Assembly: GCA_030390025.1 (NCBI GenBank)
Contig: CM059431.1
Location: 122,328,001 to 122,392,000 of the forward strand
Direction of reading: 5' to 3'
Length of the DNA stretch: 64,000 nucleotides
Origin: Squalus acanthias
Taxonomy: Eukaryota
Shown here: positions 20,630 to 54,899 of the stretch, piece after piece
How the letters are laid out: each line of letters begins with the position of its first letter
Numbering within the stretch: the stretch's first letter is position 1
Notes under the pieces: generated by a model
Told to the model about the DNA's origin: nothing
Databases searched by the model: none
Seen by the model: the letters and a program-made list of their open reading frames with translations, nothing else
Translations under genes and position numbers: made by a program

Positions 20630-23600
20630 AAAATTGAAGGCTCTTTATCTGAATGCACGCAGCATTCATAACAAGATAAATAAATTGATGGCTCAAATAG
20701 AAATAAATGGGTATGATCTGATAGCCATTACGGAGACGTGGTTGCCAGGTGACCAAGGCAGGGAACTGAATATTATGGGGTATTTGACATTTTGGAAGGA
20801 TAGGCAGAAAGGAAAAAGGAGGTGGGGTAGCTCTGTTAATAAAGGATGAGATCAGTACAGTAGTGAGAAATGATCTTGGCTCGGAAGATCAAGATGTAGA
20901 ATCAGTTTGGGTGGAGTAAGAAATAGAAAGGAAAATAAGTCACTGGTGGGAGTTGTCTATAGGCCCCCTAACAGTAGCTACACTGTAGGGAAAAGTATAA
21001 ATCAAGAAATAATGGGGGGCTTGTAAGAAAGATACTGCAATAATCATGGGTGATTTTAATCTTCATATCGATTGGACAAATCAAATTGACAATGGTAGCC
21101 TTGAGGACGAGCTCATAGAGTATATTCGGGATGGTTTCTTAGAATAATACGTTGTGGAACTGACCAGGGAACAGCCTATTTTAGAACTGGTAATGTGTAA
21201 TGAGACAGGATTAATTAATGATCTCATAGCGATGGATCCTCTGGGGAAGAGTGATCATAACATGATAGAATTTCACATTCAGTTTGAGGGTGAGAAACTT
21301 GGGTCTGAAACTAGTGTCCTTAACTTAAATAAAGGCAATTACAAAGGTATGAAGACAGAGTTGGCTAAACGGACTGGGAAAATAGATTAAATGGTAAGAT
21401 GGTAGATAAGCAGTGGCGGATATTTAAGAAGATATTTCATAACTCTCAACAAAGATATATTCCAGTAAGAAAGAAAGACTCTACGAGAAGGATGAACCAT
21501 CCGTGGCTAACTAAGGAAGTTAAGGATGGTATCAAATTGAAAGAAAAGGCATACAATGTTGCAAAGATTAGTGGTAGGCCAGAAAACTAGGAATTTTTTA
21601 GGAAACCAGCAAAGGATGACTAAAAAAATTATAAACAGGGAGAAAGTAGATTATGAGAGTAAACTAGCAAGAAATGTAAAAACAGACAGTACGAACTTCT
21701 ACAAGTATATAAAAAGGAAGAGAGTAGCTAAAGTAAACGTTAGTCCCTTAGAGGATGAGACTGGGGAATTAATAATGGGAACCAAGGAAATGGCTGAGAC
21801 TTTGAACAAATATTTTCACGGTAGAAGACACTAAAAGCATCCCAATAATAGTAGATAATCAAGGGGCAAAAAGGAGGGAGGAACTTAAAACAATCACTAT
21901 CACTAGAGAAAATGTACTAGGCAAACTAATGGGACTAAAGGCTGACATGTCTCCTGGACCTGATGGCCTGCATCCTAGAGTCTTAAAGGAGGTGACTGCA
22001 GAGATAGTGGATGCATTGGTTGTGATCTTCCAAAATTCCCTAGATTCTAGAAAGGTCCCAGTGGATTGGAAAACCGCAAATGTAACACTTCTATTCAAGA
22101 AAGGAGGGAGACAGAAAGCAGGAAACTATAGACCAGTTAGCCTAACATCTGTCATTGGGAAAATGCTGGAATCCATTATTAAGGAAGTAATAGCAGGACA
22201 TTTAGAAAATCATAATACAATCAAACAGAGTCAACATGGTTTTATGAAAGGGAAATCATGTTTGACAAATTTATTAGAGTTCTTTGAGGATGTAATGAGC
22301 AGGGTGGATCAAGGGGAATCAGTAGATGTAGTGTATTTGGATTTCCAAAAGGCATTGGATAAGGTGCCACATAAAAGGTTATTGCACAAGATAAGAGCTC
22401 ACGGTATTGGGGATAATATATTAGCATGGATAGAGGATTGGCTAACTGACAGAAACCAGAGAGTCAGGAAAAAACGGGTCATTTTCAGGTTGGCAAACTG
22501 TAACTAGTGGAGTGCCACAGGGATCAGTACTGGGGCCTCAACTATTTACAATCTCTATTAATGACTTGGATGAAGCGACCGAGTGGACTGTAGTCAAATT
22601 TGCTGACAATACAAAGATAGGTGGGAAAGCAAGTTGTGAGGAGGACACAAAGAGCTGCAAAGGGCTATATATAGGTTAAGCGAGTGGGCAAAAATTTGGC
22701 AGATGGCGTATAATGTTGGAAAATATGAGGTTATGCATTTTGGTAGGAAGAATAGAAAAGCAAAATATTATTTAAATGGAGAGAGACTACAGAATGCTGC
22801 GGTACAGAGGGATCTGGGTGTCCTCGTACATGAAACACAAAAAGTTAGCATGCAGGTACAGCAAGTAATTAGGAAGGTAAATGGAATGTTGGCCTTTATT
22901 GCTATGGGGATGGAGTGTAAAAGTAGGGAAGTCTTGCTACAACTGTACAGAGCATTGGTGAGACCACACCTGGAGTACTGTGTACAGTTTTGGTCACCTT
23001 ATTTAAGGAGGGATATACTTGCATTGGAGGGTGTTCAGCGAAGATTCACTAGGTTGATTGCTGAGATGAAAGGGTTGTCTTATGAGGAAAGATTGAGCAG
23101 GTCGGGCCTATACTCATTGGAGTTTAGAAGAATGAGAGGTAATCTTATTGAAACATATAAGATTCTGAGGGGGCTTGACAGGGTAGATGCTGAGAGGATC
23201 TAGAACTAGGAGCCATAGTTTCAGGATAAGGGGTCGCCCATTTAAGATGGAGATGAAGAGGCAATTCTTCTCTCAGAGGGTTATGAATTTTTGGAATTCT
23301 CTACCCCAGAGAGCTGTGGAGGCTAAGGGGTAAAAATTCACTTGGTTGCACCACCCGTTAGCGCCTTAAGAGGGCGCTAATGGGGCGCAAAGCCGCTAAC
23401 GCCCGGGCGCAGCGATGTTTGCGCCGCTCGAGAACTTAACTTGAGATTGTGCGGCGGCGCTAAAACTTACCGCTGCGACCACCTGCGCGCGCAGATTGTG
23501 ACGTCATTCCATGGTGCAACGCCCTTGGGGCGCCCCGTAGCGGATATTGAGTGGCGCCCCCTGCCTTACCGCCTGGCGCTTCCAACGACCAGAAGACTGG

Positions 23601-24260
23601 AACGCTATCAATCGCTGTGGGGCTGGGGGGGGCGCTATTTAAAGGGGGCCTCTTCCTGTCTTTTATTGTTGGTGGCATTTTTGAACTACGCATTCTGTGA
23701 GAGAGAGGGAGAGACTTCTGGAGAGATTCAACGTTGTGTGAAGGAGTTTTGGGTACTGAGCAGCACTTTGCAGGTTCATTTTGATTTGCCATTCCTTGTA
23801 TCGATTTAGCAGAGACCGTGGGAGCTGCACTCTGAGCTCTTTGCCTGGTGCTCTCCATTGTTCTTTCCAGCACATTTGATGTGCAAGTCTCTCCAGGCCG
23901 AGATTCAAGGCAGCAATGAACAGGATGTGGATGGAAAGCAAGATTAACCATCCCCTTTAAGAACTGGCCCGTGCCATTGTGTGTGTGTTCCATTGCTGAC
24001 TGACATTACATGAGCTTCGCCAGCGCTCCGAGTTAGCGCCTCACTGCTCGGCCTTTGCGCCTTAAGAGAGGTGTGCAGCGCCTGCTTTAGCGCTCCACTC
24101 ACCTCCCGGGGCGGTAAAAGTGAAGTTTCCCGTCAGTGCCGATAATTAGCGCCAGGCGCTAATATTTGCGTCCGGACGATATTTGCGCCCCAAATGGGGC
24201 GCGACCTAATTTCTACCCCTAAGACTTTGAATATATTCAAGGCTGAGAGAGACAGATATT
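20630..24260 (+). pseudogene. CR1 ORF2 APE endonuclease/reverse transcriptase, disrupted
   Basis: ORF pieces 20514-20849, 21154-21390, 21929-22507, 22703-23203 with canonical CR1 motifs. Confidence 0.9.
23327..24219. mobile_element. Non-autonomous Harbinger (MITE-1, 893 bp) related to 26274-30435
   Basis: TIRs GGGGTAAAAATT / AATTTCTACCCC, TSD TAA; both ends near-identical to the full-length element. Confidence 0.95.
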
Positions 24261-24638
24261 TGAGCTCCAGGGGAATCAAGGGTTATGGGGAACAGGCAGG
24301 AAAGTGGAGTTGAGGCCAAGATCAGATCAGCCATGATCTTATTGAATTGTGGAGCAGGCTCAAGGGGCCAAATGGCCTATTCCTGTGTACGATTCTCAAA
24401 ATTCCCACATTTCCCAAGTCATCAATAAGGGAACCCTCAAGGGAATGGCTTTTATTATGGCAGGAAAAATGCAAGGTTAAAGTAGGACACTGCAGACAGG
24501 AGGTCGAGTTTAAAAGGCCTAGAACTTGAAATGCCTGGGCTTGTAGAATACAGCTTTGATTGTTACCTGAAGCCAGACAACTTGAGGAGACAGAATACGC
24601 ATTCTTCCCTTAAAACAATCAACCCAGGAAAAGACTTA

Positions 24639-25536
24639 GGGGGAAAAATTCAGTTGGTTGCGCCTCCCGTTAGCGCCTTAAGAGGGCGCTAATGGGGCGC
24701 AAAGCATCTAGCGCCTAGGCGTGGCGAAGTTTGCGCCGCTCGCGAAATTAACTAGACATTTTGCGGCGGCGCTAAACACTACTGCCACGATCTCCTGCGC
24801 CGGCAGATCGTGATGTCAGTCGAGTGCACAACACCCCGGTATCGCCCCGGAGCAGATATTGAGTGGCGCCCCCTGCCTTACTGCCTGACGCTAGCAACGA
24901 CAGGTTGAGGGGAGCGTTTCTGCAGTCATGAAGGGAAAGGGGGAGCGCTATTTAAAGGTGACCGCTTCCTGCCTTTTATTGTTGGTGCCATTTTTGAACT
25001 ACGCATTCTGAGAGAGAGAGAGAGAGAGAGACTTCTGGAGAGATTCAACGTTGTGTGAAGGAGTTTTGGGTACTGAGCAGCACTTTGCAGGTTCATTTTG
25101 ATTTGCCATTCCTTGTATCGATTTAGAAGAGATTGTGGGGGCTGCACTCTGAGCTCTTTGCCTGGTACTCTCCATTGTTCTTTCCAGCAGATTTGATGTG
25201 CAGGTCTCTCCAGGCCGAGATTCAAGGCTGCAATGAGCAGGATCTGGATGGAAAGCAAGATTAACCATCCCCTTTAAGAACTGGCCCGTGCCATTGTGTG
25301 TGTGTTCCATTGCTGACTGACATTACATGAACTTCGCCAGCGCTCTGAGGTAGCGCCTCGCTCCTCGGCCTTTGCACCTTAAGACAGGTGTGAAGCGCCT
25401 GATTTTGCGCTCCAATCACCTCCAGGGGCGATAAAAGTCAAGTTTGCAGTCGGTGGCGATAATTAGCGCCAGGCGCTAATCTTTGCGCCCGGCCGATAAT
25501 TGCGCCCCAAATGGGGCGATACTGAATTTCTCCCCC
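24639..25536. mobile_element. Non-autonomous Harbinger (MITE-2, 898 bp)
   Basis: TIRs GGGGGAAAAATTCAGT / ACTGAATTTCTCCCCC (15/16), TSD TTA. Confidence 0.95.
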
Positions 25537-26860
25537 TTAATCTTGCACAAACCTATAGCCCATCAAAACTATGCATAAATAATCACTTACAGTTCAAACT
25601 AGCTACCGAGCCAGGAAGACAACGATTTACATTATGCATAACAAACACCCAAGGCATTAAAGCCATTAAAACAACGAGTGAAATTACCTTAAGGAGCCTG
25701 CCCAAAAGTCAGACAAAGAACTAACCCTGATTTGGCGCCCAGATAAGAAATTCAAAAACAGTATAACTGTGGGCCACCAGTAACCAAAGGGGGCTTGGAA
25801 AACCTCTCCGGAAGCAGCAGGAAGATCCAACATCACAGCGAGGGGGCACGGTGGGGCAGGCTCAACCGAAGATGACAAGGCCGCCACCGCAGCCCTACAC
25901 AAAGACCGAACACGAGCACCGCGGTAACCAAGGGCCGGGTAAACCATACCTTCAGATCATTACCACCACTCAGGTAATGATCTAGGCCGCTGCGACCGAG
26001 CCGACACCAAAAACCGCCAACCGGACCCCAACCCCAACAAAACTCGACGACCAGACCATCATCGGAAGAACAAAACCCGAAGTTTCGATTCTACAAGGTA
26101 AAGTACCCAACAAAGACTTTACTTTCCCTATTTCTAACTAAGAAAAGTGGGCACTTACCAGACAAATCCATAACTGCGCCCTACCGCATCAGCGGACTCC
26201 ACCAAACTGAGGGACCTTCGCAGATTCCACAGACCGGTACCACGTGGGGACGGCAGGCCCCAAAGGACACAAAGGGGGAAAAATTCAGTTGGTTGCGCCT
26301 CCCGTTAGCGCCTTAAGAGGGCGCTAATGGGGCGCAAAGCCGCTAGCGCCCGGGCGCAGCGATGTTTGCGCCGCTCGGGAACTTAACTAGACATTGTGCG
26401 GCGGCGCTAAACTTTACCGCTGCGACCACCTGCGCGCGCAGATTGTGACGTCATTCCATGGTGCAACGCCCTTGTGGCGCCCCGGAGCGGAAATTGAGTG
26501 GCGCCCCCTGCCTTACCGCCTGGCGCATCCAACGACCGGAAGACTGGAACGCTATCAATCGCTGTGGGGCTGGGGGGGGCGCTATTTAAAGGGGGCCTCT
26601 TCCTGTCTTTTTCTGTGGTTGACATTTTTGCACCACTCGTTCTGAGAGAGAGAGAGAGATTCGGAGAGAGAGAAAGAGAGACTTCTGCATTGAGTCAATG
26701 CTTTGTGAGGTAGTTTTGCCTACTGATCCTAACTTCGCTGGTACTTTGGTTGCTGTCCTTCATAACTTTGCTTGCAAAGAGACTATGGGGGCTGCACTGA
26801 TTGGGGGCGTCGTCCTGCTCCAGCTGAATCGGAGGACACAGAGACGCAGAGAGAGTGGCA

Positions 26861-27943
26861 ATGATGGCCAGACGAAGGAGGGCCAACAGGCGTATGTACA
26901 GGAGAGCTTACCCTCCCAGGGTATATCGTGAACAGCTCTCCTACATTCATATATCTGAGGAGCTGTGTTTGCGAAGGCTGCGATTCAGCAAGGAGGTGGT
27001 CACTGAGCTCTGCCACCTGCTGCAGCCAGATCTGCAGCCTCAACTGAGGTCCAGGACATCTCTGTCGGTGGCAGTGAAGGTCACAGTGGCTCTCAACTTC
27101 TATGCTACTGGCTCATTTCAAGCTGCTGCTGGAGACCTCGCCAATATCTCCCAGTTCGCGGTGCATTGCTGCATCCGGCAGGTCACAAATGCCCTCTTTA
27201 AAAGGAGACGAGAGTTCATCTCTTTCCCCATGACCCTAGACAAGCAGCGTGACTGCGCTCTGGGCTTTGCGAGGATAGCGGGCTTCCCCATGGTGCAGGG
27301 CGCCATTGACTGCACGCATGTGGCTTTGCGTGCTCCACATGAGAATGCCGAGGATTTCCGGAACAGAAAGGGGTTCCATTCCTTGATTGTTCAGTTGGTC
27401 TGTGACCACAGACAGCTGATACTCGCTGTCAATGCCCACTATCCTGGCAGCTGCCACGATGCTTTCATCCTGCGCCAGACTACTGTGGCAGAACTTTTCG
27501 AGGCACCGCATCAGCCAGTTGGTTGGCTTCTCGGGGACAAGGGGTATCCATTGAGCACCTGGCTGATGACACCGCTCCGTACGCCCAACACCCCTGCTGA
27601 GCTGCGGTACAACGAGAGCCATCAAGCTACCAGGAACATCATTGAGCGCACAATCGGCGTGCTGAAGCAACGGTTCCGCTGTCTCGACCATTCTGGAGGA
27701 GCCCTGCAGTACTCGCCTGAGCGAGTATCCAACTTCGTAGTTGTGTGCTGCATGTTGCATAACATGGCAATCGTCAGGACCCAGCCAATGCCACCAGGCC
27801 TTGGAGCACCACCAGAGGAGGAGGAGGAAGAGGAGGAAGAGGACGAGGAGGATGATCATCAGCAGCACCAAGGCGGGAGGGCGGCCCACAATGGTGAAAC
27901 TGCAAGGGCCGTCCGTCAACGGCTGATAGCAAGCCGCTTCTAG
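26861..27943 (+). CDS. Harbinger DDE transposase (HARBI1-like, DDE_Tnp_4 type); ancestral start probably ATG 26785, now out of frame
   Basis: Open 360 aa from ATG 26861: FYATGSFQ, GAIDCTH, NRKGFHS, YPGSCHDAFIL, LLGDKGY, YNESH..TRNIIERTIGVLKQRFRCL, CCMLHN, acidic tail. Confidence 0.93.
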   Translation: MMARRRRANRRMYRRAYPPRVYREQLSYIHISEELCLRRLRFSKEVVTELCHLLQPDLQPQLRSRTSLSVAVKVTVALNFYATGSFQAAAGDLANISQFAVHCCIRQVTNALFKRRREFISFPMTLDKQRDCALGFARIAGFPMVQGAIDCTHVALRAPHENAEDFRNRKGFHSLIVQLVCDHRQLILAVNAHYPGSCHDAFILRQTTVAELFEAPHQPVGWLLGDKGYPLSTWLMTPLRTPNTPAELRYNESHQATRNIIERTIGVLKQRFRCLDHSGGALQYSPERVSNFVVVCCMLHNMAIVRTQPMPPGLGAPPEEEEEEEEEDEEDDHQQHQGGRAAHNGETARAVRQRLIASRF

Positions 27944-28255
27944 GGCCCCTGCTGTGGAAATGGCTTCTGCCATTGCTAACAACATCAATGAACCCAGCAC
28001 GCAACCCCTAAGCCGGTCAAGGCACCAATGATTCCAAACACCAAACATGTATATTTTGAATACAAAAACTTATTTATTTTACAAACTCTGTGTGTGTCAT
28101 TTCCTCATGACAAACTCATAGAAATAAACACAAAAAAACAGTCATTAACATAACTGGTTCTCACAACCTGGAGATAATGTCCAAAACACTAGACAAAAGT
28201 TGGACCACGAACCTCGGCCTTTAATAAAAAAATGACCAGCATTTTGTCACACCTC

Positions 28256-30075
28256 CTACTTTTTGCCCTTCGAGGGTGATCTCCTTCCCTTGCGCACTTC
28301 CCCCCTTCTAAACCTACTGCTCCTCCGTAATGGGACCTCAGTGGCTGCAGCAAGGCTGGTGGAAGGCTGCTGATTGTCAGACCCTGACACTGCAGATGTC
28401 CCTGAAGGATGGCCTCGACCAGTTCTGGGCCTGGAGGGCCCGGCTGCAGACTGCACCAACTCTGCATGGGCGGCAGCAGTCTGTCCTACAGGCGGTGGCA
28501 AGTGCAGTGGAGAAGTGACAGTGTTGGCAGCAGGAATGCTGTCATTGTGAGAGAGGACAGCAACTCCCTGCTCGACCGACACACTGGCACTCCCACGGGG
28601 CAGCACTTCAGCATCCGGAGCAATCTGCTGGAGCACAGATTGCTGCCCTGCTGCGGTGCGGTGAGAGCCCCGGGGACATTTGAATGAACCATCGAGGTTG
28701 GCAGCAGTCAGTGCTCGCGTGGCCTCAATCTGAGTCTGCATGAGAGCAGTCAGAGATGGGATCACGGCAGTCAGTGACTGAATTGCAGCACTAAGCTTTA
28801 GTGTGGCATCCGCCTGTGCTACAGCGAAGTGCTCCACACTCCTTGCCAGTGACTCAATGCATTCGGACACCCTTCCCACTGCACCCATGAGCTCAGTGTG
28901 CATGCCCACCGCCTGGGTGTTCATTTCTGCGATCAGCCGCTCCTCCTCTGCGTCCATTGCAGTAGGAGTCGCTGGCATACTCTCCCTCTGGGGAGAAGGC
29001 CCCCGTTCTTCCCTACCCCCATGGCGTTGCTGCAGCCCGCTGGGTCCTGGAGCTTCACCCTCATCAGACTCTTCCCCCCTGCTCCCCTCCAGGGAAGGCG
29101 TGTTCCCAGTGTGGGCATGGGCTTCCTCGGGAGAGGGTGGCACTGATGCTCCGGCTTCCTCTTCCTCCTCAGCTGCAGCTTCACTCCCACTGGCAGCTTC
29201 AGGGCCCGTCTCCTCAGCTGGTGAATCACCATCTGAAAGCAGGGAGGTACAAGAGTGGCTTTAGCGTGAGGACAGGGTGGCAGTAAGGGAGGAATAAGTG
29301 CAGCGAGTTAGCAAGTTGGATTGAAAGTGTCAAAGGCTGGTGTTGTGAGGGACAAGTGGAAGGACAGAGGACAAAAAGGTGATGACCTTACCATTGCTGT
29401 CCAGAACGGGGTCGGCGTCTCCAGTGGCGACGGGACCGATCACCCGGCTTGCCACAATCCTGTGGACGCGCTCCTCAAGATCGCTGAGGAGTTGCAGCTG
29501 AGGCCGCCCTCCACCTGTCCGTTGCTGCTGTCTCCTATTATGCGCCAGCTTGGCCTGCAAGAAAAAGGATAGCATCTGAGTAAATATACAGCCATGGTCT
29601 TGCCTGATGTGCCTCCCATAGGTGAATAGCCCTTACTGTATACAGCCATGGTCTTGCCTGATGTGCCTCCCATAGGTGAATAGCCCTTACTGTATGCAAA
29701 GTGTGGAATGTGTGTGTGTGTTTCATGAAAGGGCCATAGGTGTTGGATGAGTGTTGTGCATTGGGGTTTTAAGACCCTCTGGCCATAGAGTGAGGTTGAG
29801 ATGGAGGGATGGAGAGGTATTGAGAAAAAGCCACTCACCCTGACGACCCGAGTGAGGTCGTTGAACTTTTTGCGGCATTGAACATGGGTCCTGGGCACCA
29901 TGCTCCTGGAGGAGACGCTCTGAGCCACCTCCCTCCACACTCTTCTGTACTCGCGTGGCAAAGGCCTCCTGCCACTCTCAGGGAAGAGTATAGATCTTCT
30001 GCACTCCACCGCGCCAACCAGAGCATCCAAGGCCCGCTCGGTGAAGCGCTGAGCTCGTTCTCTCACCCTCTCCAT
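28256..30075 (-). CDS. Harbinger ORF2 Myb/SANT-like DNA-binding protein, 3 exons (30075-29839, 29554-29392, 29232-28256), 458 aa
   Basis: Exon 1 MERVRERAQRFTERALDALV..W..V..R..QCRKKFNDL; donors GTGAGT and GTAAGG, acceptors TTCTTGCAG and CTTTCAG; phases 0 and 1 join in frame (237+163+977=1377 nt); RTGGG motif in exon 2; basic C-terminus. Confidence 0.88.
29585..29695. repeat. Perfect 54-bp tandem duplication in ORF2 intron 1
   Basis: TATACAGCCATGGTCTTGCCTGATGTGCCTCCCATAGGTGAATAGCCCTTACTG x2. Confidence 0.95.
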
Positions 30076-31340
30076 CCTTGGCTGCAAAATGGATTCACAG
30101 GTCTCTCCAGGCCGAGATTCAAGGCTGCAATGAGCAGGGTGTGGCTGGGGAGCAAGTTGCAACCCCCCCCCTTTAAGAACTGGCCGGCGCCAGTGTGTCT
30201 GTGTTCCCTCGCTAACTGGCAGCACCTGCGCTGCGCTCGCGTGCTGAGTTAGCGCTTCACTGCTTGGCCTTTGCGCCTTAAGACAGGTGTGCAGCGCCTG
30301 ATTTAGCGCTCCACTCACCTCCCGGGGCGGTAAAAGTGAAGTTTCCAGTCAGTGGCGATAATTAGCGCCAGGCGCTAATTTTTGCGTCCAGACGATATTT
30401 GCGCCCCAAACGGGGCGCGACCTAATTTTTCCCCCAAAGAGCGTACCCCAAAAACGCAACCGGCTTACCTGGCTGGATTTTGAACTGTCAAGAAACCCCT
30501 GTTGGTGAGCATGATCCCTGGCCTCTCTTAGTGCAATTTAGTTAGGTTTTGGGGGTGGGACAAGGGTAAGGGGATCATTATTGTGATTTTTCCCTCGTTC
30601 TGCCATGTGTTCTCCATTCTTAACCAAGTGTACTCTTGAATGTCTGTATAATCTAAGTGTATTTTTAATGTTATAATTTTAGTGCGACTTCAATAAACAC
30701 AGTTTTCTTGCACCAAACCAGTTGTCCACTCCAATTTTGTATCGCAGCCTGTATCTAAGTCCGGAGTCTAGAACTTCAGGGGAGTGGGAACGGTTCGACC
30801 CGTCCAGACAGTCAGAGGCAAAGCTGACCCACAGGCCACCCCCTACATCCTGCTCCTATTTCTTATGTTTTAATGTTCTAACAAATTACAACAAGACATT
30901 AATAAATTTGAAGAATGGGCATATAATTAGCAAATGAAATTCAACACAGATAAATGTGAGGTATTACATTTTGGTAAGTAAAATAGGGAGGTCACTTGGA
31001 AAATATGAATCTAAGTGGGGTAGAAGAGCAAATGGTTCTGGGAGTACAAATACACAAATCACTGAAAGTAGCGACACAGGCCATAAAAAGGCAAACCAAG
31101 CGCTATGGCAAATTTCTAGAGGAATTGAATTGAAAAGTTGAGAATTTATGCTAAACTTGTATCGAACCTTGGTTAGACCACACTTGGAGTACTGCGTACA
31201 ATTCTGATCGCCATATTATAAAAAGGACAAAAGGATATAGATGCACTGGAGAGGGTGCAAAAATGATTTACGAGGATGATACCAGAAATGTGAGGGTATA
31301 CCTATCAGGAAAGGATGAACAGGCTGGGTCTCTTTTCTCT

Positions 31341-36452: not shown

Positions 36453-37868
36453 TTATAAGAGTAAGGAAGTCTTGCTGCAATTATATAGGGCTTTGCTGAG
36501 ACCACACCTGGAGTACTGTGTACAGTTTTGGTCTCTTTACCTAAGGAAGGATGTACTTGCATTAGAGGGGGTGCAATGAAAGTTCACTGGATTGATTCCT
36601 GGGATGAGAGGGCTGGCCTACGAGGAGAGAATGAATAGGAGGGGCCAATACTCTCTGCAGTTTAGAAGAAGAGGTGATCTCATTGAAACATATAGGGGGA
36701 AAAAAATGGTTGGTTAGCGCCTCCCATTAGCGCCTCCGGGGGCGCTAACGGGGCGCTCGGAACTTAGGAACTCACAAAATTGACCAGTAGTTTTGCAGTG
36801 GCACTAAACACTACCGCCACGATCTCCTGCGCCCGCAGATCATGAGATCGGTTGAGCGTGCAATGCCCTGGTAGTACCCCAGACCGGATATTGAGTCGTG
36901 CACCCTGCCTTAGCGCCTGCCGCTAGGAACGACAGGTAGAGGGGATCATTTTCAAGTCAGGAAGAGCTGGGGGAGCGCTATTTAAAGGCGGGCACTTCCT
37001 GCCTTTTCTTGTCAGCAAAATTTTTGGTACACTCAGGTTGAGAGGGAGAGAGGCGTCTGGAGAGATTTAACACTGTCGTAAGGAGTTTTAGCCCTCAGCA
37101 CCACTTTTGAGGTTCCTAAGCGCCGGGCTCTTTCCCAGGGCCTATTCATTAATGCTTCCAACACAATTGCTTTAGAGGTCTTTCCAGGCCAAGATTCAAG
37201 GCTGCAATGAGCAGGGAGTGGCTGTCCAGCAAGATGGCCCCTCCCCTTTAAGAGCTGGACGGCGCCAGTCTGCCTGGCTTCCATGGTTACTGACATCGCC
37301 TGAGCTTCGGTAGCGCTCTGAGGTATCGCCTCGTTCCCCGATGTTTGCACCTTAAGAGAGGTGTGTAGCACCTGATTTAGCGCTGAAATCACCTCCAGGG
37401 GCGATAGAGGCGAATTTTGCAGTTGGAGGCAATAATTAGCACCGGGCGCTAAACTTTGCACCCAGCCGATATTAGCGCCCCAAAATGGGCGATACCCAAT
37501 TTTTCCCCCATAACAATCTTAAAGGGCTTGACAGGGTAAATGCTGAGAGGTTGTTTCTCCTGGCTGGAGAGTCTAGATTATATAGTCTCAGGATAAGGGG
37601 TCGGCCATTTAAGACTAAGATGAAGGGAAATTTTCTCACTCAGAGGGTTATGAATCTTTTGGAATTCACTACCCCAGAGGGCTGTGGATGCTGAGTCATT
37701 GAGTATATTCAAGACTGAGATTGATAGATTTTAGGGCGCGAAGGGAATCAGGGGATATGGGGATAGGGTGAGGTAGAAAATCAGCCATGATCTTATTGAA
37801 TAGTGCAGCAGGCACGTGGGGTCGTTTGGCCGACCCCTGCTCTTATTTTTCGTGTTCTTGTGCTTATT
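36453..37868 (+). mobile_element. CR1 3' end interrupted by MITE-3
   Basis: RPHLEYCVQFWS..DLIETY| then LKGLDRVNAERLF, 3'UTR and tail. Confidence 0.88.
36695..37509. mobile_element. Non-autonomous Harbinger (MITE-3, 815 bp)
   Basis: GGGGGAAAAA / TTTTTCCCCC termini, TSD ATA, subterminal homology to MITE-2 and the 26274 element. Confidence 0.92.
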
Positions 37869-37869
37869 C

Positions 37870-40147
37870 TTACCAGGACTCCAAGTTAAAGGCTGGCTAT
37901 TGGGTGAGAAGGGCTATCCCCTCCAGACACAACTCATGACTTCAGTTCAGAACCCGCGCACAGCTGTGCAGCAGGAGTACAATGAGAGCCATGTTGCCAC
38001 ACGGAGCATCATCAAGCAAACAATCGGCGTCTCCAAACAATGCTTCTCCTGCCTGGACCGTTCAGGAGGAGCCCTGCAGTACACTCCTGATTTGTGGTTG
38101 TCTACTACATGCTCCACAACTATGCCATCATGAAGGACTAGCCCTTACCACCACCTGAGCGCCAGCAAATTGAAGAGGAGATGCCCCTTTCTGCCCGAGC
38201 TCTAAGAGACCAGCTGATTGAGGGGCAGTTTCAATAACCACAACTCCAAGTCCCCATTTACCAGCCATCCTGCACTCCTTACCTTTCTTCTTACAGTCAC
38301 CATCACATTGTCCTCTTTCACTCAACATTAGTTGATTTTTCCTTCACTTGTCCGCAAACAAAAAAAAACAGCAAATGCAAATCTGAAACCAAATTTATCA
38401 AATCACTAATCTGATACTTTACACAAAATTAAACTATTCACCCTTGCACATTCCCTTAGTGTGCCTGTCTTTCATGTTCCTTTGCCTATCCTGGTGCTTT
38501 TACAATGTGTTTCCCCAGTGGCTGCAGCTTGAGAGGTGGAAGGCTGCTGACCTTCCATTGAGGAGACTGCAGATCGCCTTGGGGGCAACCTTGAGCAGCT
38601 CTGGGCCTAGAAGGCCCAGCTTCAGACTGCACAATCTCGGCCTGAGCTGCAGCAGTCTTGGCTGGCTGGCTGACAGGCACCAGCAAGGGCACTGGCGGAG
38701 TGGCAGGGGTGGAAGCAGGACTGCTGTCCTCCTGAGCGAGGACAGCGCTTCCCTCTTCCATGGAGCCAAGGCCACTCTCCTGTGGGGGGGTTGCCTCAGC
38801 AACCCTAGTGCTCTGTTGAGAACAAAGTGCTGGACTGCTGTGACGCCCTGGAAGCCCTTTCAACATTGGCACCCAGAGCCAAGATGGCAACTGTTTGAGT
38901 TGCCATGGCAGCATTTTGTGCTACGATGGAAGCTGTCATTAGACATTCCATCATCGTGTGTTTCACAGTTGTGCTGATGAAGGTAACCTCCCGTTCCACG
39001 TTGGAAAGGATTGGCTCCAAGCTCTGCGCAAAGCCATGCGCTATGTTTGAGCTGGACTCCTCCACGCAATGTGACATTATGCACAAGCTCTCTGACAGGC
39101 TTCCCAGTGAAGTCTGCATCTGAGTCTTCTGCAGCAAAACTAGTATTCAAACTTGCCATCTGGCGAGTTGGCACCTGTGGTGTCCTCTTCTCCTGCTCTG
39201 GATCCTGTGCACTTGTGCCCGGTGAGTCACCATGAGCAGATCCCTCTTCTAACCTAACATCTAAAGTCCATGTAGTATCAGTCTCTGAGCTGGTGGCTGC
39301 GAGAGTGAGATCAAGTGACAGTGTCCCTTCCTGGTCACTCTCATCCTCTTCCTCCCCTGGCTGAGGGACTTCCACATTCTGGGTTAATGAGAATCTTTCA
39401 AAATGTTTGGGTAATGTGGCTGTCATGGTTGAATAACTGCCAGTGTGTGTGTGAGATGTGAGTTGTGGGTGTGAAGTTTGTAATAATGCTGAGTGTGTGA
39501 GGGTGAGATGAAGACTATTAATTGAACAGTTCTGTACTGATTGTAGGTTGGCGGGGGAAGGGCCTGCTGCGAATTCAACAGTTCATGAGACTATGAGTGG
39601 TGCAGCTTTTATGAGATTCCATTTGAACCTTGTTCTTACCTTAACATCTGTTATCACATCAGTAAACATCTTACGGCACTGCATCCATGTCCTAGGAGCT
39701 ATGCTCCTTGCGTTTACCTCATCTGCATCCTCCTCCCTCTGCCTGCAAATGATATCCCTGGAAGGCTTCCTGCCCCTGGGAGTTACAGAATGTCACTCCT
39801 CCTCTCTACCTCCTGCACCAAGGACTCCAGTGCAGCAACTGAGAACCTTGGTGCCCGCACTCGCCCAGGTCCAGCCATTTCAGCTGATAAACAATTTCTA
39901 ATGGTTGTTGCAGCCACAATGCACCTCTCCTTTAGAGGTGCAGGCTGCCTTTAAGTAGTGTCGTGGACCCCCAATAGCGGGCCCCCTCCTCATGCGTGCA
40001 GCCAATGAACAGTGCAGGTAGCTTTGGCTGCACGCAGCAATCATTTTAATGAGCAAGCAGCATGGATTTTACGTGCTGCTTGCATGGCTATTAATTGCTC
40101 ACGGCGATTCCCGCGCCCGTTCTCCCACACTAATCAATTTCACCCCC
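37870..40147. mobile_element. Degenerate, left-truncated Harbinger (transposase C-terminus on +, ORF2 remnants on -)
   Basis: GWLLGEKGYPL..YNESHVATRSIIKQTIGV..CLDRSGGALQY (37890-38090); minus-strand AAAQAEIVQSEAGPSRPR matches ORF2 at 28256-29143; right terminus AATTTCACCCCC. Confidence 0.85.
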
Positions 40148-44189: not shown

Positions 44190-46619
44190 TGGGTGCTAGC
44201 AGGACTCTGGTACCTCATCCATTCTTCATGTGCAAGCTTTGACACTGAAGGCAGGATTTGATTCTTTACCACTACTAAAGCTGAGGCAGGCTTAGGCAAC
44301 TAATTGGGCAGGGATCCATTACTTTTGATTCCCATCCATGTTTCCGTGCATCGCATGCTGTGCCAGAAGTGTTGGCAGCCCCTGAGATTGCCTGTATTCA
44401 AAATTGAACAATAATGTAATTCATTATCTATTCCAAATTACTTCCTTTGCAACAATGGATGTAAAGAATGCCTGCATACAACAGGCAAAGAGTGATGTGA
44501 AGGGAGGTGGAACAGCTCCAAAAGGTTGAATAAAGGAGGTAGGATGATCAATGGATTGCAGTACAAAGGAGAGATAAATTGGCGTCCTTAGTTTGTCCCA
44601 TTTCATCACACCTTGAATTTATTTTTGATAAGGTTGTCTGCCCCTTTAAGCTGCTGCAGGCATCAGGCACCCACAATAATGGGCATTTCCCACCTTCTAC
44701 TGTTAAGCTTCCATGTGCAGGTAGGAATCCCACCAGGAATTTGCCCAACATTTTAAATTAGATTGACCAGTAGAAATTTGTTGGGGTCAACTGTTGGATC
44801 AGTCAGTCCAGCAAAAAGTTTGTCTGCCAACTTAACACCAGTGATCCTGGCTGGAGGAAAATATAGGATTGAGTGCCGGCTATTTGATTGTGGTGGACAT
44901 TACAGTTGAGCCCGATTCTGTCCTCAACTGATGTCCAGATGTACAGGCCAAATTTTGAATTGCAGGCCAAATTTGATGGCCTGACTGATGTTTTCCTCTA
45001 TCCCTAACCCAGTGACATTGTAGCCAATATTAGCACCCCTACTCCATCCCTCAGCTGACAATACTAACATAACAATAGGGGAGAGAAATTTGTTTTAGCC
45101 AGTAAAGTTGCTGGTGTCACTGGCAACTGGAGTTAACGGCCACTTAAAATGGCCGCAACGCTAATGGAGCAAAATTCATCTGGGGGGATGGAGATTGTTG
45201 GTGCAGCGCTTATCTACCATGCAACGCTGTCCTGGTGGCATTGCTGGAGGCATCCGACCTGAAGTTTGTTTGCAGGTGCGGCGTTCGAGCCTCGCACAGC
45301 CTCTGGAATCGAGACTGTGGCGCTCGCAAAGAATTGTGGGCAATGAAGAGGCCTGAGAATTAAAGGGGCCTTGCACACTGAAGCAATACAAATTAAAATG
45401 AAGTGAAACAATGCAGTATTCAGAACTTTATGTCTATAAAAAAAAAATTAAAGAAAGACCTGCATTTATGTAGCGCCTTTCATGACCACCGGACATCCCA
45501 AAGTGCTTTACAGCCAATGAAATACTTTTGGAGTGTAGTCACTGTTGTAATGTATTTAACATTAAAAAGAAGTCCCAAATGTGAATATTCAGCTCTTAAA
45601 GCTGAATTCCCTTCCTAACCTCAAAAAATGGGAAAAATGCCTCAGCACGAACACAAGTGGCTCAGCAAGCCATGGAACGGGCGCCCAGGGACTTGAATGC
45701 AGCATTCCAGCTTTGTGCAAGGGGTCAACACCACAAGACTGGCCCTCTACCCACAGGTGCCAGGAGACACTCCAGAAAGAACAATGTGGGACTACATCAC
45801 TGAGGCCTTCACTGCTAGCAGTGTCGCCCCCACCACCTGGCTCCAGTGCCCAAAGAAGGTTCATGACCTCAGAACACTGGTCAATATCAGTGAATGCCTC
45901 TTCAAAAGCCGTCTCCTACCAACTGTACCACTAGCCTCAATGCACGACCCCCCAAGCCCAATCACTCGCCTAACAACAATCTGCAACAATCATGAGACAC
46001 ATCTCCCACTCCTAGCCTCATCCCACATTCTTGGCAGAAGCCTGGCTGAGCCCTTGGCCAGTGGCGGTGCTGAAAGGATACAAGAAGCTGCGATCCTCAT
46101 ACGTTATCCTCCTGCTAGCATGCGCCTCTTGCTTTCCCGCCCTCCGCACACCAAAACTGCACCCTTGTGCCTTCCTCATTTTAAACACCCAAAAGATGCA
46201 GCCTGCCCAGCCAATGGGTGACCAAGAAGAGGGAGAGAAAAGTGAAGAAGAACAAGAAGAAGAAGATTGATTTGACACTCCCAGCCACCAGCTCCTCAAG
46301 GTCAACCAGCAAGGACATTTGCAGTGTTCCCCACTGAAAGTCAGCAGCCTTCCACCAGCCATGCTGCAACCACTGGGGTAGCACTGCGTGACATCAGTAG
46401 ATAGGCAAAGGCACACACAAGACAGTCACTAAGAGAATGCATACAGGTGATGAGTTGATTTCTTGATGTCACATTGGGTGGATAGACGTATATAGGTGGA
46501 TGGTAAAGTTTGCTTTGTGGTGGATTTTATTTCAGCATTGTGGCCAAGAGGACATTGTGATGGTCAGTAACAGATGGATGGTAAGGTGTGGGATTAATGT
46601 TGGAAGGCGAATTGGGGTT

Positions 46620-47988
46620 GTGGTCACTGGGATCGCAGGCAGATGATTCCATCCCAGATATCCCGGCCACAAAGGGGCTGTCTGGGAAGCATCCTTCCTT
46701 CTGCTTCCTCTTCTTCTGCTTCCTCCTCTTCGGCTTCCTCCTCTTCTGTGTCTTCCTCTTCCCTCTGCAAGCTGATGCTGTAAATGTGAAATGACAGCAT
46801 AAAATGCTGGAAATACTCAGCTGGTCGGGCAGCGACTCAACCTGAGACGTGAACTCTGATTTTCTCTCCAGGGATGTTGCGTGACCTGTTGAGTATTTGC
46901 AGCATGTTCTGTCTTCTCAAAGGCCTTGATTTACCATCCATGCCCTTGCAAGCATCCAGCAGCACTCCCTACACACTTAAAAAACTTTTCACATCTATTT
47001 TAGAAAGCCACCACTTCAATAAAATCAAAAAATCCAGTCCAAAACCTTAAATCCAAACTTACCTGAATGATGTCTGCACCTTTAAGAGGTGCAGACGTCA
47101 CCACTGTCAGCCTGTTTGCACACCAGATTAACCTGGCGTTCTTAGGACCCAGCATGGTTCTCATTATATGAGTGCTGGGCACGAGTGTTGGGGTTGCGGA
47201 GGGGATTCATCAGCCAGGTGCAGAGCCTTGTCTCTGAGCAGCCACCCTTGAGTTTCATGTGATGGCTGGAAGATTGCTGGCTCACCAGACTGGCGCAGGA
47301 TGAAGGCATGATAATTGCTGCCAGGATAGCATGCATTGACCATCAGGAAGCACTGGGTGTGGTCGCACAACAACTGCACGTTAAATGAGTGATAGCCTTT
47401 GCGGTTACGGAGGATCTCAGGGTTGTTATGCGGCACCCGTAAAGCCACGTGGATGCAGTCAATGGCGCTCTGCCCCATGGGGAAGCCCACAATCCTAGCA
47501 AAGCCACATGCACGCTCGTCCTGCTTCTCTCTGCTCAGACAGAAGAAAATGTAGTCCCTACTCTTGGTGTAGAGAGCCTCTGTGACCTCCCGGATGCAGC
47601 GATGGACGGCGAACTGTGAGATGTTAGCTATGTCTCCTGCTGCAGACTGGAAGGTTGCGCTATTGAAGAAATTGAGGGCCACAGCGACCTTGAGGGCTAC
47701 TGGGCTTGCTGTTGTCACCCTGCTCTCAGGCTGTAGGTCTGGTTGCAGGAGGTGTCAGTGTTCTGTGATCACCACTTTGGTGAAACGGAGACTCCTAATA
47801 CACTGCTTCTTGCTTAAATGGATATAAGTAAAGTGGTTTCGGTAGACCCTAGGTGGGTAAGGCCCCCTTTTGAGAGCCCTCATGGCCCTCCTCCTCCCTC
47901 TGCGCGCATCTTCTCCTTTTCTTCGCTGCCTCTGCTCCCTCTCCCGAAGATACTCGAGCATGAGGGGGACTGCCAGTAGAGCCCCCAT
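46620..47988 (-). pseudogene. Harbinger transposase pseudogene
   Basis: MGALLAVP..YPPRVY, KVAVALNFF, AIDCIHVAL, NRKGYHS, YPGS, GWLLRDK; frameshifts; acidic tail at ~46700-46765. Confidence 0.88.
46790..46915. mobile_element. Decayed inverted-repeat element, probably a second Penelope pLTR family
   Basis: ATGCTGGAAATACTCAGCTGGTC / GACCTGTTGAGTATTTGCAGCAT imperfect arms; family assignment from recall of similar shark repeats. Confidence 0.55.
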
Positions 47989-50781: not shown

Positions 50782-52299
50782 GGGCTAGAAATTCATTATA
50801 GCCCAGGAATGGGCGGTATCTTTAGAAAAGTTTGAGAATTCGCGCCAGGCGCAATTGCTTTAGACTGCAAGCAAAATTCATTCTCACTGCTCAAAGAAAT
50901 GATTGGGGCACTAAATCAAGTCTTAAAGGCTTAGCTCAGTGGCATTATACTCAAAGGGTGGACCAATATCGGGTGCAGTCTAATCTCAACTCATCATTGC
51001 CGCTGGCTTTTCCCAGTACTTAAAGGGGAGGTTCATTGATACTGCAGCACCTCATTCTCAGCATTGCTGGCTGTGCAGCTGCCTCAGCAAGGAGAAGCAC
51101 AACAAGGAGAAGGATCCAGAGGACTGAAGCAGATGTGCTCATGGCAGATCCACCTCAGTCGTGTGGTCAAGGTGATTGAATGCTTCAACAAATGCTGCAT
51201 ACCACCATCTGTACCATAAGCTTCACACACTGCCCAAAGCACCACACCCCCAACACACACCCACCAACAATCTCCACCTGCCAACACTCACACCCACATC
51301 TCACACCTTGCACACATTCAACCAGCTATTCAACAATTACAGGCACAAGGGTCATTCATTATGAGAATGAATGTGATATGTGTGATATGTTTATGCATAA
51401 ATTTATTAATGGAGTTTGCGATATTTTGTGGTCTCTCTCATTTCCCCTTTGCACCCAGGAGGACGCTGTGATATGGCATGACACAGGGATGGTATGATGT
51501 GCATGTGGTGAGCAAAAGGGATCTGGGGTTTAAGTCATCCTGATGTGAGGCTGGAGGTCTGTTTGGAGGAGGTGGCAGAGTTCTGTGACCAACACCTTGG
51601 TGATGTGGAGCCATCTAATACACTGCTCCTCGCTTAATTGAATGTAGGAGAGGTGCTGTCAGAATACCCTCGGAGGGTAAGGCCTCCTGGTAAGAGCCCT
51701 GATATCCTCATCATCCCTCTGCGCACATGTTCCTATATTTCTGGCTGCCTATGCTCCCTCCGCCATAGATCCTGGAGGGCGAGGTGGCGCCAGTACAGCC
51801 TCCATTAATGTTGCCACGTGTAGCAGTTTGAATCTTTGAACAATAAGTGTAGGCACATTGCACTTGCCAGAACACTGTTGATAAAAAAGAACCTTGAAAT
51901 TACTCATTCAAAATGATCCACTAGCTGAAACTGACAAGAAACCACTGAAACGAACCTGCCCTGACAGCTGCGAGTGATTAATGCAGATGCCTTTAAATAA
52001 CGTCCCTGGAGCTGGCATCCTGCAGCTGTGTGCCTCCTCTCCCTGTCGCATTCTGGTCGAGGCGCAAAGGTAAGTGGCAAAAATCAGTTTTGTAGATCGA
52101 GTGCCTTGCACGCTCACTGACGTCACAATCTGCCGGGCATTGAAGCCCTCGGCGGTACCTCGTACTGGCGGTGCAGTGGGGGGTCCAGATTTGCCGTGCT
52201 CCGTTGGGTTCGCCTCGCCCCGGCCCTCCTGCATCAGCGCCCCGTTACCGCCCTCTGCAGGCGCTAGTGGGAGGCACTAACCAACTTAATTTTCCCCCC
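50782..52299 (-). mobile_element. Harbinger internal-deletion derivative
   Basis: Termini GGGCTAGAAATT / AATTTTCCCCCC; transposase N-terminal remnant on - (~51560-51810, RPYPPRVF..FSYIQLSEEQCIR) similar to 47755-47988. Confidence 0.75.
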
Positions 52300-53308
52300 A
52301 GTAATTTTAACTCAACCCGCCCGGCAGGAAACTGACGGGATCAGATAGGCTGCCAGTTTCACACACCGTCTGTTTTGACTTTCCACACATTTCCATCTAG
52401 AAGGAATGATGTAGATTGATATTGGCTGAGTTATCTCCCAATGAAACTGTTTCCTTTTTGCTTGTGTCAGCTCTTTGGTAGAGCTATACAATTAATCTCA
52501 CTTCCCTGCTCTTTCCCCATAGCCCTGCAAACTTTTTCCCTTCAAGTATTTATCCAATTCTCTTTTGAATGTTACTGTTGAATTTGCTTCCAGATCGTAA
52601 CAAAAAATTACAAGTAATCAGGAGAGCTATCTTTGCTTTTATATTTATTGGTTATTTGTTCCAATCTTGGACTCGAATCCAGTTTGCTTCTGAACAAAAA
52701 GATCAACAGTTGCTTTCAAGTGATGCAAAACCAGTGGATACAATTTTGCACAGAGACTTGGCCGTAAATTTTGGGGGTCTATGCGGGTGCAATCGGAGGC
52801 GGGTCGGGTGGGAAATTTGCAATAAGTTGGAGCAGGTCGGGAACTCGTTGGCATCCCGCCCCCACGCGCCTTTCCCTCGGGCGCGTTTGCCGGTGCAGCA
52901 GCGACCTGACCGGCAGAGGCGGGCGACCTAATTCAAATCATTACCACTTTGTTGTCAGACCCTTAAGTGCCTTTTTCAGTTTAGCTTTCAAATTTCCCTG
53001 GCTGCCCATGGGATTCAAGCAGCTCAGGAACCACGTCTGTCAGCCTGAGGCAGGAGTTGAGTGGCCATTGCTCCAGCTGATTAGATGACAGCATGAAATG
53101 TACTATAAAAACTCCCACCTCACAGCTGATCACTTTCCTCTGGCAGAAGCTGTTGCTGACTGCATTCCCAGCACACATTTAATTTTCTACAGGCTGCAAG
53201 TGTTTGCAGCAAAGTCACCACCCAGTCTTACCTTATTGGTACAATCTATCACTCCATTGACAGATTGCTTCTCTCATCTCTACTTGACCTGCCATCTATT
53301 CCATCAGC

Positions 53309-54612
53309 ATGGGTGCCGTTTATACTGTCTCACCTTGTTCCTCAGAATCGGACCACGATGAGCCCCAACACCAGCAGCACCAGGCACACCAGCAGCACCA
53401 ACAACAATACCACCAACCTTCTCCTCAACCACCTTAAGCTGCACAGGACAGAGGGCATCAGCGCAGGGCTGCACCATGCGGAGGCAATACCCCCAGCACA
53501 GGGTATACAGGCAGAGGATGAGCTTCCTCAACATGACGGAGCAGCAGTGCCAAAGGAGGCTCAGGCTATTGCATCAGGTCGTCGCAGATATTTTCACATT
53601 GCTGGAGCAAGACCTGCAGCCCAGAGGAATGTGTAGACACGCCTTACCAGTGGATGTCAAAGTCACCAGCACCTTCAACTTCTTTGCCTCAGGTTCCTTC
53701 CAGGGATCTGCAGCAGACATTTGTGGCATCTCACAGTCGGCCGCCCTCAGATGCATCACACAGGTCACTGATGCCCTCTTTCACAAGTCAGCCATTTATA
53801 TCAACTTTGCCACTGATGAAACCAGTGTTACTGAGCAGGTGCTCGCCTTTGCCAGTCTGGCACTGCTGCTCAGTCATGTTGAGGAAGCTCATCCTCTGCC
53901 TGTATACCCTGTGTTGGCTGGCATCCCACGGGTGCAGAGCGTCATCGACTGCTCACATGTGGCCATCAGGGCACTCCATCATCACCCAGGTGTCTTTGTC
54001 AACCACAAGGGCTTCCACTCCCTCAATGTGCAGCTGGTCTGCAACCATAGGAAGATCATCATGCATGTGTGCACCAAATTCCCTGGCAGCTGCCATGACT
54101 CTTTTGTCGTTCATCAGTCCACCCTCCCTCAGCTCTTTGTTCCTCCAAACAGACTTTCCGGCTGGCTGCTTTGAGACAAAAGCTATCCACCGAAGACATT
54201 ACTCATGACACCCTTGAGGAGGCCAAGTACAGATGCCCAGGAGAGATATAATGAAAGTCACATTTTCACCAGATGTGTCACAGAGCAGACAATAGGCATT
54301 CTCAAAATGCGCTTCAGATGCCTTGACATATCTGGAGCAGCCCTTCAGTATGCACCAGCCAGGGTTTCCAAAATCGTCATGGTCTGCTGCGCCCTGCACA
54401 ACATAGCACAGCAGCGAGGATTAGCACTGCATGAGGAGCAAGGCACTGAGCGCACAGCCTCTTCAGAGGAGGAGGAGAAGGAGGAGGAGCATCAGCTGGA
54501 ATACGAGGAGGAGAAGGATCAGGAGGAACCTGCGGTCCAGATGCCACCAGCACCCGAGCACATTGCTGCCCGGGAGGCCAGGAATGGCCTCATCAAGGCC
54601 AGATTTACTTAA
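53309..54612 (+). pseudogene. Harbinger transposase pseudogene (early stop and frameshift, TGA at 54172 in LL-G-DK, 57-bp insertion)
   Basis: [65 protein letters not shown]; ORFs 53476-54174 and 54205-54612 are in the same frame. Confidence 0.92.
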
Positions 54613-54899
54613 CTTTATGCAGTACACCCATATGGCTGTCACATGTTGTGCCAGGTTGGCACCACCCCACAGCAACATCATAAAGGATCCCTACAATGAC
54701 TAAGCCATTCCTTTCACACTGACTACCATTGCTGGAGGAACTGTTATGTGTCAGCATTCACTGCAACTCACTAAGCCACTTCTAAAGGTGCACACAAATT
54801 TGTCCAAGACTGGAAAGTGGTGAAATTAAAGATTTTTATGGTTGAGATCACATTAACGGAAACTTGACATTAACATTGAGTAAAACACCCAAATGGCTA

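What the first reader, a model, noticed from the sequence alone, without database searches (positions are those of the whole stretch)
26274..30435. Near-intact two-gene Harbinger transposon: candidate recently active element
Seen: perfect TIRs and TSD, complete catalytic motifs in an open transposase frame, a fully open 458-aa Myb/SANT gene with canonical introns, CpG-rich undecayed ends, and innermost (youngest) position in the nest. Established: Harbinger transposition needs both proteins. Inference: possible source of transposase for the related MITEs and a candidate for reconstruction as a vertebrate transposon tool.
Basis: partly seen in the sequence, partly recalled or inferred. Interest (0 to 1): 0.7.

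Follow-up and report, generated by a model that had tools for sequence, protein, structure and literature searches.

The report
Decayed shark Harbinger transposon copy
This is an ordinary full-length copy of an abundant two-gene "cut-and-paste" jumping gene in a shark-type genome, whose transposase has a reading-frame break near its start, so it is probably a dead relic rather than a working element.

Summary
The anatomy is real. The element is 4,162 bp with 12/12 TIRs and a 3-bp AAA duplication; empty paralogous sites skip exactly 4,165 bp in 3 of 3 contig runs laid. It carries a DDE transposase frame and a convergent 458-aa three-exon Myb/SANT gene, inside a solo LTR inside a CR1 LINE. All 120 listed relatives are animal HARBI1-like proteins, the best from sharks and rays (67%).

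The transposase is not intact. Its conserved MGA start (26785) is out of frame, because this copy lacks one AG unit at 26847 that the family's main contigs carry (X9 100%, X6 78% of depth; X1 only 12%). It also has I where 93 of 115 homologues have N. The copy lies about 1.3-1.9% from an abundant family shared by two organisms laid here; 8 of 9 listed coding differences change amino acids, as neutral decay predicts. CpG-rich ends also mark the older MITEs. The MITE cores come from a sister family. Splicing and polymorphism were not testable. Harbingers are already reported in shark genomes, and this scan noted others in this genome. Ordinary; low interest.

The parts
26271..26273 (.). Left target-site duplication (AAA)
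   Evidence: empty sites skip 4,165 bp in X1, X6, X9
26274..26285 (+). Left terminal inverted repeat, 12 bp, starts GGGGG
   Evidence: 12/12 match to right TIR
26286..26600 (+). Left subterminal region, CpG o/e 1.07, repeated TAGCGC/GCGCTA words (candidate Myb-binding sites, inferred) and a TATA-like box at 26583-26590 kept in all three MITEs
26785..26847 (+). Native 5' end of the transposase gene (MGA... start, strong context), cut off from the rest by a 2-nt frameshift in an AG run at about 26847; this frame stops at 26931
   Evidence: 11 of 120 homologues start MGA and 24 of 120 start MG; AG put in behind 26847 in family contigs
26861..27943 (+). Remaining open transposase frame, 360 aa from the downstream ATG; D150 (27308), D200 (27458), D226 (27536), E262 (27644); N-to-I at residue 176 (27386)
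27944..28255 (.). AT-rich spacer between the two stop codons with AATAAA on + (28123) and on - (28073-28078): likely overlapping 3' ends of convergent transcripts (inferred)
28256..29232 (-). Myb/SANT gene exon 3 (acidic, coiled and basic tail), with stop
   Evidence: no Pfam hit
29233..29391 (-). Myb intron 2, 159 nt, GT-AG
   Evidence: splicing not observed
29392..29554 (-). Myb exon 2
   Evidence: gap-free homology across junction 1
29555..29838 (-). Myb intron 1, 284 nt, GT-AG, holding a perfect 54-bp tandem duplication (29585-29695)
29839..30075 (-). Myb exon 1 with the Myb/SANT-like domain; start codon also seen in the MITEs (MESTRQRAQ)
   Evidence: PF13873 E 2.9e-10
30076..30423 (-). 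Right subterminal/promoter region, CpG-rich at its outer part
30424..30435 (-). Right terminal inverted repeat
30436..30438 (.). Right target-site duplication (AAA)
24386..30847 (+). Host: about 1.4-kb TG...CA element with a 5-bp duplication (24381-24385 / 30848-30852), read as a solo LTR (class not determined), interrupted by MITE2 and by this element, itself in a CR1 3' tail
   Evidence: multi-copy with empty sites
23327..24219 (+). MITE1, 893 bp, TAA duplication, in CR1; mosaic: outer ends about 94% like this element, core 87-100% per window like MITE2
24639..25536 (+). MITE2, 898 bp, TTA duplication, in the same solo LTR; sister family (76-81% to this element's ends)
36695..37509 (+). MITE3, older relative, ATA duplication, in CR1

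Best explanation
A full-length copy of an abundant, two-gene Harbinger-type (PHIS superfamily) DNA transposon family of a cartilaginous fish. Family mechanism, from established knowledge of Harbinger3_DR and mPing: the Myb/SANT protein binds the ends and brings the DDE transposase into the nucleus and onto the TIRs; the element is cut out and reinserted with a 3-bp duplication. Shown here: this copy landed in a solo LTR at an AAA triplet whose flanks fit an A-N-N-Y|TSD|R-N-N-T preference, and it has since decayed. It lost one AG unit at 26847, and it carries near-private amino-acid changes in both genes. Inferred: ribosomes start at the strong AUG at 26785, read a 48-aa frame that overlaps and passes the downstream AUGs and stop at 26931, so little transposase is made. 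The copy is therefore non-autonomous, although its intact ends could still be moved in trans and its open Myb gene could still be expressed. The family burst is old in absolute time (millions of generations), though late relative to the other repeats here.
For: TIR, TSD and empty sites. Pfam hits. All 120 listed homologues are HARBI1-like, best 67%, the top 50 from sharks and rays. 'AG put in behind 26847': X9 391.8 of 391.8 depth (one main contig), X6 6,143 of 7,921. MGA starts in 11 of 120 homologues, and the same codons survive in MITE1 and MITE2. Of the 40 difference rows shown (of 208), 10 lie in the element and X1, X6 and X9 agree on all 10; the window's letter holds 1.5% or less of X1 depth at 8 of 10. 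8 of 9 coding rows are non-synonymous against a neutral expectation of 71-72%. At residues 31 and 132 the family letter (M, R) is the one common among homologues (30 of 96, 62 of 118). N176I against 93 of 115 N. Divergence: 6 substitutions in a 451-nt main contig; word shares 0.55-0.66 in 13 runs imply 1.3-1.9%. At that divergence a stop-free Myb frame is expected 47-59% of the time by chance. Flanks of the four insertions fit the target motif at 14 of 16 positions, P about 5e-5.
Against: In X1 (organism A, deepest) only 28,696 of 231,700 depth shows the extra AG. Short contigs ending in the repeat may explain this, but a common short allele is not excluded. The deletion lies in a dinucleotide run, where an assembly slip is possible; no reads of this individual were seen. 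The downstream AUGs at 26861/26864 give a 360-aa frame about as long as some homologues (P0085, P0089, P0091: 349-360 aa). A 200-nt main contig has 0 differences. The rows shown were the best supported, not a random draw, and the family state at residue 176 was not among them. No RNA of this organism was available.
Confidence: 0.8

Rival explanations
1. The copy is intact and recently active: the 2-nt gap is an assembly error or a common allele, and the other differences mark a young subfamily.
For: Perfect TIRs and TSD, open Myb gene, all four acidic residues present. Only 12% of X1 depth shows the longer allele. The chance that both frames stay stop-free after neutral decay is only 19-33%.
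Against: The main contigs of X9 (organism A) and X6 (organism B) carry the longer allele. 8 of 10 listed differences are nearly private by depth, which a multiplying subfamily would not give. N176I. The family is shared by two organisms laid and four or more indexed.
Confidence: 0.08
2. The copy is frameshifted but still a weak helper: leaky scanning to AUG 26861/26864 gives a shorter 360-aa transposase that works, and/or its open Myb gene supplies protein in trans to MITE1-type elements.
For: Strong context at 26864; homologues with short N-termini exist; MITE1 ends about 94% identical to this element; Myb frame open with canonical introns.
Against: The upstream AUG is also in strong context and its frame overlaps the downstream AUGs. 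Conserved positions are changed. No expression evidence: the one RNA raw-read run laid (organism I) held nothing but an AG repeat.
Confidence: 0.1
3. A domesticated gene pair of the HARBI1/NAIF1 kind, kept by the host.
For: Databases name the homologues 'putative nuclease HARBI1'; the Myb frame is open.
Against: TIRs, TSD, empty paralogous sites and family contigs at 13-35 times the depth of a host LTR that is itself repeated; neutral pattern of changes.
Confidence: 0.02

Closest known systems
Harbinger3_DR / Harbinger3N_DR of zebrafish (reconstructed; seen only as cited in passages of PMC2836001 and PMC3016246; the primary paper was not held)
   Same: Two genes (DDE transposase and Myb-like), short TIRs, 3-bp duplication, extended palindromic target. 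The left flank of this site ends in ACAC, as in the published target AAACACCWGGTCTTT (PMC3016246).
   Different: The central triplets here are AAA, TAA, TTA and ATA, not CWG. Sequence identity to Harbinger3_DR was not tested. This copy is frameshifted.
NuwaI / NuwaII groups of the PHIS superfamily (PMC4482050, passages and section 8)
   Same: Two ORFs with DDE and Myb/SANT, TIRs starting GG(G), about 4.2 kb against group means of 4.5-4.7 kb; C...G flanks at this site and C|TAA|G at MITE1.
   Different: This site is C|AAA|G: neither CWG nor TNA. MITE2 and MITE3 lack the 3' G. No tree with reference Nuwa transposases was built.
PIF-Harbinger / Tourist repeats reported in whale shark and grey reef shark genomes (PMC8455134, PMC12498223; one passage each)
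   Same: Same superfamily in sharks; Tourist/Harbinger named the commonest DNA transposons in the grey reef shark.
   Different: The passages give no family-level anatomy; whether this family is in those repeat libraries, Repbase or Dfam could not be checked.
Shark and ray 'putative nuclease HARBI1' proteins (e.g. P0001, Pristiophorus japonicus)
   Same: 67% identity over 97% of the 360-aa frame; MGA start; acidic tail.
   Different: No listed protein above 67%, so this family is not among the listed hits; those entries are gene predictions without element ends.

Membership tests
Harbinger-type transposons, broad sense (PHIS superfamily, two-gene type) | DDE transposase of the DDE_Tnp_4/HARBI1 type | tested here: met
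   PF13359 E 1.3e-39; D150, D226, E262 present (the triad assignment is from my own knowledge of the motifs)
Harbinger-type transposons, broad sense (PHIS superfamily, two-gene type) | Second gene encoding a Myb/SANT protein | tested here: met
   PF13873 E 2.9e-10; 458-aa spliced model
Harbinger-type transposons, broad sense (PHIS superfamily, two-gene type) | Terminal inverted repeats | tested here: met
   12/12; shorter than the 25-50 bp called usual in PMC9179366, within the 12-61 bp given for NuwaI in PMC4482050
Harbinger-type transposons, broad sense (PHIS superfamily, two-gene type) | 3-bp target-site duplication | tested here: met
   Empty sites skip 4,165 = 4,162 + 3 in 3 of 3 contig runs
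PIF/Harbinger group, strict sense (PMC4482050) | TSD is TWA | tested here: not met
   AAA at this site; TWA at 2 of 3 MITE sites. One site does not settle the family's preference, so it is not filed here.
NuwaI (PMC4482050) | TSD is CWG | tested here: not met
   0 of 4 sites
NuwaII (PMC4482050) | Target C|TNA|G | tested here: inconclusive
   Full match at 1 of 4 sites (MITE1); C and G flanks but AAA centre at this element
NuwaI / NuwaII (PMC4482050) | Transposase falls in the Nuwa clade | not tested
   Reference family sequences lie in supplements that were not read
Potentially active (autonomous) Harbinger copy | Both ORFs intact | tested here: not met
   Transposase start out of frame; Myb frame open
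Potentially active (autonomous) Harbinger copy | Spliced transcripts, polymorphic insertions, transposition in cells | not testable with these tools
   No RNA raw reads of this organism were offered; X21 lacks the family; no genome held
Domesticated HARBI1/NAIF1-type genes | Single copy, no TIR/TSD, fixed position | tested here: not met
   TIRs, TSD, empty paralogous sites, high depth

The most novel reading that the evidence does not exclude
This copy is dead, but its family is one of the youngest autonomous DNA transposon families of sharks. It may still have working copies in some lineage, and it uses a relaxed AT-rich triplet (AAA/TAA/TTA/ATA) inside a Harbinger3_DR-like flanking motif. 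It may also have captured a sister family's MITEs by swapping ends (MITE1). That would give a natural, testable shark Harbinger system with a target choice unlike the zebrafish one.
Probability: 0.15. Interest if true: 0.45.

Novelty: new member of a known kind. Interest (0 to 1): 0.17.

Why it matters
Little as it stands: it is one decayed copy among many, in a window crowded with older Harbinger remnants. It is a clean worked example that full two-gene Harbingers multiplied in a shark lineage. PMC4482050 called PHIS elements absent from sharks and PMC9179366 left other cartilaginous fish open, but later genome papers already list the superfamily (PMC8455134, PMC12498223). It also warns that near-intact looks mean little in a lineage with so low a mutation rate. 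A still-active relative would matter more, as a natural vertebrate Harbinger with a different target triplet.

Tried and rejected
No whole genome was held, so copy number and copy-to-copy divergence were not counted directly.

A metagenome scan with the transposase gave 622 pattern matches and none confirmed. Rfam gave 0 matches in the window. A PDB sequence search gave only chance hits, best E 0.12. A Myb exon-1 search among longer proteins gave 1 hit of 149 candidates. No structure model was obtained, so the effect of N176I is inferred from conservation alone.

The RNA run X21 (organism I) held only an AG repeat, 114 reads, so it says nothing about splicing. No joint at the predicted introns was among the 15 shown of 60. 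X9 has an unspliced contig across intron 2 and behaves like DNA, which is no evidence against splicing.

Runs X19 and X20 (shares 0.07 and 0.06) were ignored.

CpG-rich ends were rejected as an age marker. Direct descent of the MITEs from this element was rejected.

In one search the right end of MITE3 was set one base too far. Read from the printed sequence, it ends at 37509 with ATA on both sides, and the motif count stays 14 of 16. Look-ups of earlier findings by relatives and by sequence returned nothing.

Full report
Observation. The element spans 26274-30435 (4,162 bp). Its ends match 12 of 12 as inverted repeats and are flanked by AAA on both sides. In all three contig runs laid on 25560-30860 (X1 and X9, organism A; X6, organism B), contigs join the two flanks and skip 4,165 bp, the element plus three bases. 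The ends and the 3-bp duplication are therefore exact, and the host repeat has empty copies elsewhere. On the minus strand, exons 30075-29839, 29554-29392 and 29232-28256 give 458 aa with two GT-AG introns. Exon 1 matches PF13873 at E 2.9e-10, and two homologues align without a gap across junction 1. On the plus strand a 360-aa frame from ATG 26861 matches PF13359 at E 1.3e-39 and holds D150, D200, D226 and E262.

Host and nest. The homologue search found 487 proteins and listed 120; the named ones are 'putative nuclease HARBI1' or unnamed predictions, the top 50 from sharks and rays, the best at 67%. The genome is therefore most likely a cartilaginous fish (inference). The element sits in a TG...CA element of about 1.4 kb with a 5-bp duplication, read as a solo LTR, which interrupts a CR1 3' tail. 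MITE2 (24639-25536) lies in the same LTR, so the two cannot be ordered. Older Harbinger transposase and Myb remnants lie elsewhere in the window.

The transposase is broken. An ATG at 26785 in strong context begins MGAALIGG, but its frame stops at 26931 after 48 aa. Of 120 homologues, 24 start MG and 11 start MGA, including 4 of the best 5; many of the rest are partial predictions. MITE1 and MITE2 keep the same first codons at their deletion joint. Family contigs carry an extra AG behind 26847: X9 391.8 of 391.8 depth, X6 6,143 of 7,921, X1 28,696 of 231,700. With those two letters the MGA start is in frame with the catalytic part. The low share in X1 counts against a clean reading. It may come from short contigs that end inside the repeat, or from a common short allele, and I could not separate the two. 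An assembly slip is also possible. I infer that the overlapping 48-aa frame would block most translation from 26861/26864, although a 360-aa product is as long as some homologues. Residue 176 is I where 93 of 115 homologues have N and 1 has I; the family's state there was not among the rows shown.

Age and abundance. Eighteen of the 23 runs listed hold half or more of the sampled 31-mers: five of organism A at 0.78-0.83 and 13 runs at 0.55-0.66. The latter shares imply 1.3-1.9% divergence; shared variants bias this down and missing coverage biases it up. A 451-nt main contig differs at 6 letters and 2 gaps, and a 200-nt one at none. In X9 the family's main contigs have depth about 390-410 against 11-30 for the host LTR; the tool warns that depth is not copy number, so I say only 'abundant'. 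One search showed 40 of 208 difference rows, the best supported; 10 lie in the element. X1, X6 and X9 agree at all 10, and the window's letter holds at most 1.5% of X1 depth at 8 of them (11% and 35% at the other two). Eight of the nine coding rows change an amino acid, against 71-72% expected without selection. At this divergence a stop-free Myb frame arises by chance in 47-59% of simulations, and both frames together in 19-33%, so open frames are weak evidence of function. With the epaulette shark rate of 7e-10 per generation (95% CI 1.4-14.1e-10; PMC10587355, passages), 1.3% needs about 9 million generations even at the upper limit. This is rough: it is another species, CpG sites mutate faster, and some differences may predate the insertion. 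The ends are CpG-rich (1.07, 1.04), but so are those of MITE1, MITE2 and the much older MITE3 (0.84-1.16).

MITEs. All three keep both ends and lose the genes; MITE1 and MITE2 keep the first codons of both genes head to head. MITE2 is 76-81% identical to this element's ends. MITE1 is a mosaic: 339 of 360 left and 169 of 180 right outer bases match this element, while its core matches MITE2 at 87-100% per 60-nt window. The MITEs thus stem from a sister family. MITE1-type ends could have been moved by this family's proteins (inference), but nothing points to this copy as the source.

Target choice. The four sites have AAA, TAA, TTA and ATA duplications. Their flanks fit A-N-N-Y|TSD|R-N-N-T at 14 of 16 positions, P about 5e-5 from base composition. 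I took that motif from earlier finding e1-7807215 and tested it here. It resembles the Harbinger3_DR target (PMC3016246, passage) and explains the unusual AAA.

Mechanism. Shown: ends, duplication, two genes, nest, frameshift relative to the main contigs, neutral-looking decay. From the literature: both proteins are needed; the Myb protein binds the TIRs and brings the transposase into the nucleus (PMC2836001, passages; PMC9179366, abstract and introduction). Inferred: this copy no longer makes useful transposase but could be moved in trans. Not tested: transcription, splicing, polymorphism, activity.

Known and new. It meets all four features tested for a two-gene Harbinger in the broad sense. 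It fails TWA (strict PIF/Harbinger) and CWG (NuwaI) and is inconclusive for NuwaII (PMC4482050, passages and section 8). That paper called PHIS elements absent from sharks, and PMC9179366 found none in the elephant shark (passages). The whale shark and grey reef shark papers already list PIF-Harbinger (one passage each). Large Harbinger bursts are described in a newt (PMC5741667, passages). PMC9392472 (two passages) covers the domesticated genes. Five searches (listings and abstract starts only) showed no family-level description of a shark Harbinger. Repbase, Dfam, subscription journals and supplements were not seen, and the family tables of PMC4482050 and shark repeat libraries may hold this family. 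This scan has noted several other Harbinger features in the same genome; they are leads, not support.

Verdict. A real, full-length but probably dead copy of an abundant shark Harbinger family. New member of a known kind; interest 0.17.

Noticed in passing
window 23327-24219: MITE1 is a mosaic: outer 360 bp left and 180 bp right about 94% identical to the full element, core like MITE2; suggests end swapping between sister families.
   Followed up: partly
window 29585-29695: Perfect 54-bp tandem duplication inside Myb intron 1; whether it is private to this copy was not seen.
   Followed up: no
run X1, joints 30435 to 26274 and 30440 to 26274: Contigs join the element's right end to its left end with 1 or 6 letters between (depth 45 and 47, table 5c): tandem copies or excision circles.
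   Followed up: no
window 24386-30847: About 1.4-kb TG...CA element with a 5-bp duplication at the CR1 3' tail, hit by two Harbinger-type insertions; repeated and shared by organisms A and B; class not determined.
   Followed up: partly
window 36695-39730, 46279-47892, 51539-52298, 53160-57101, 62720-63998: Several older Harbinger transposase and Myb remnants (48-66% and 39-53% amino-acid identity): the window is dense in Harbinger families of different ages.
   Followed up: no
window 26698-26700: A further upstream ATG in frame with the MGA start (77-aa frame to 26931); MITE1 and MITE2 have ACG there.
   Followed up: no
window 28073-28128: Opposite-strand AATAAA signals placed so that the two convergent transcripts would overlap at their 3' ends.
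   Followed up: no
   Followed up: no
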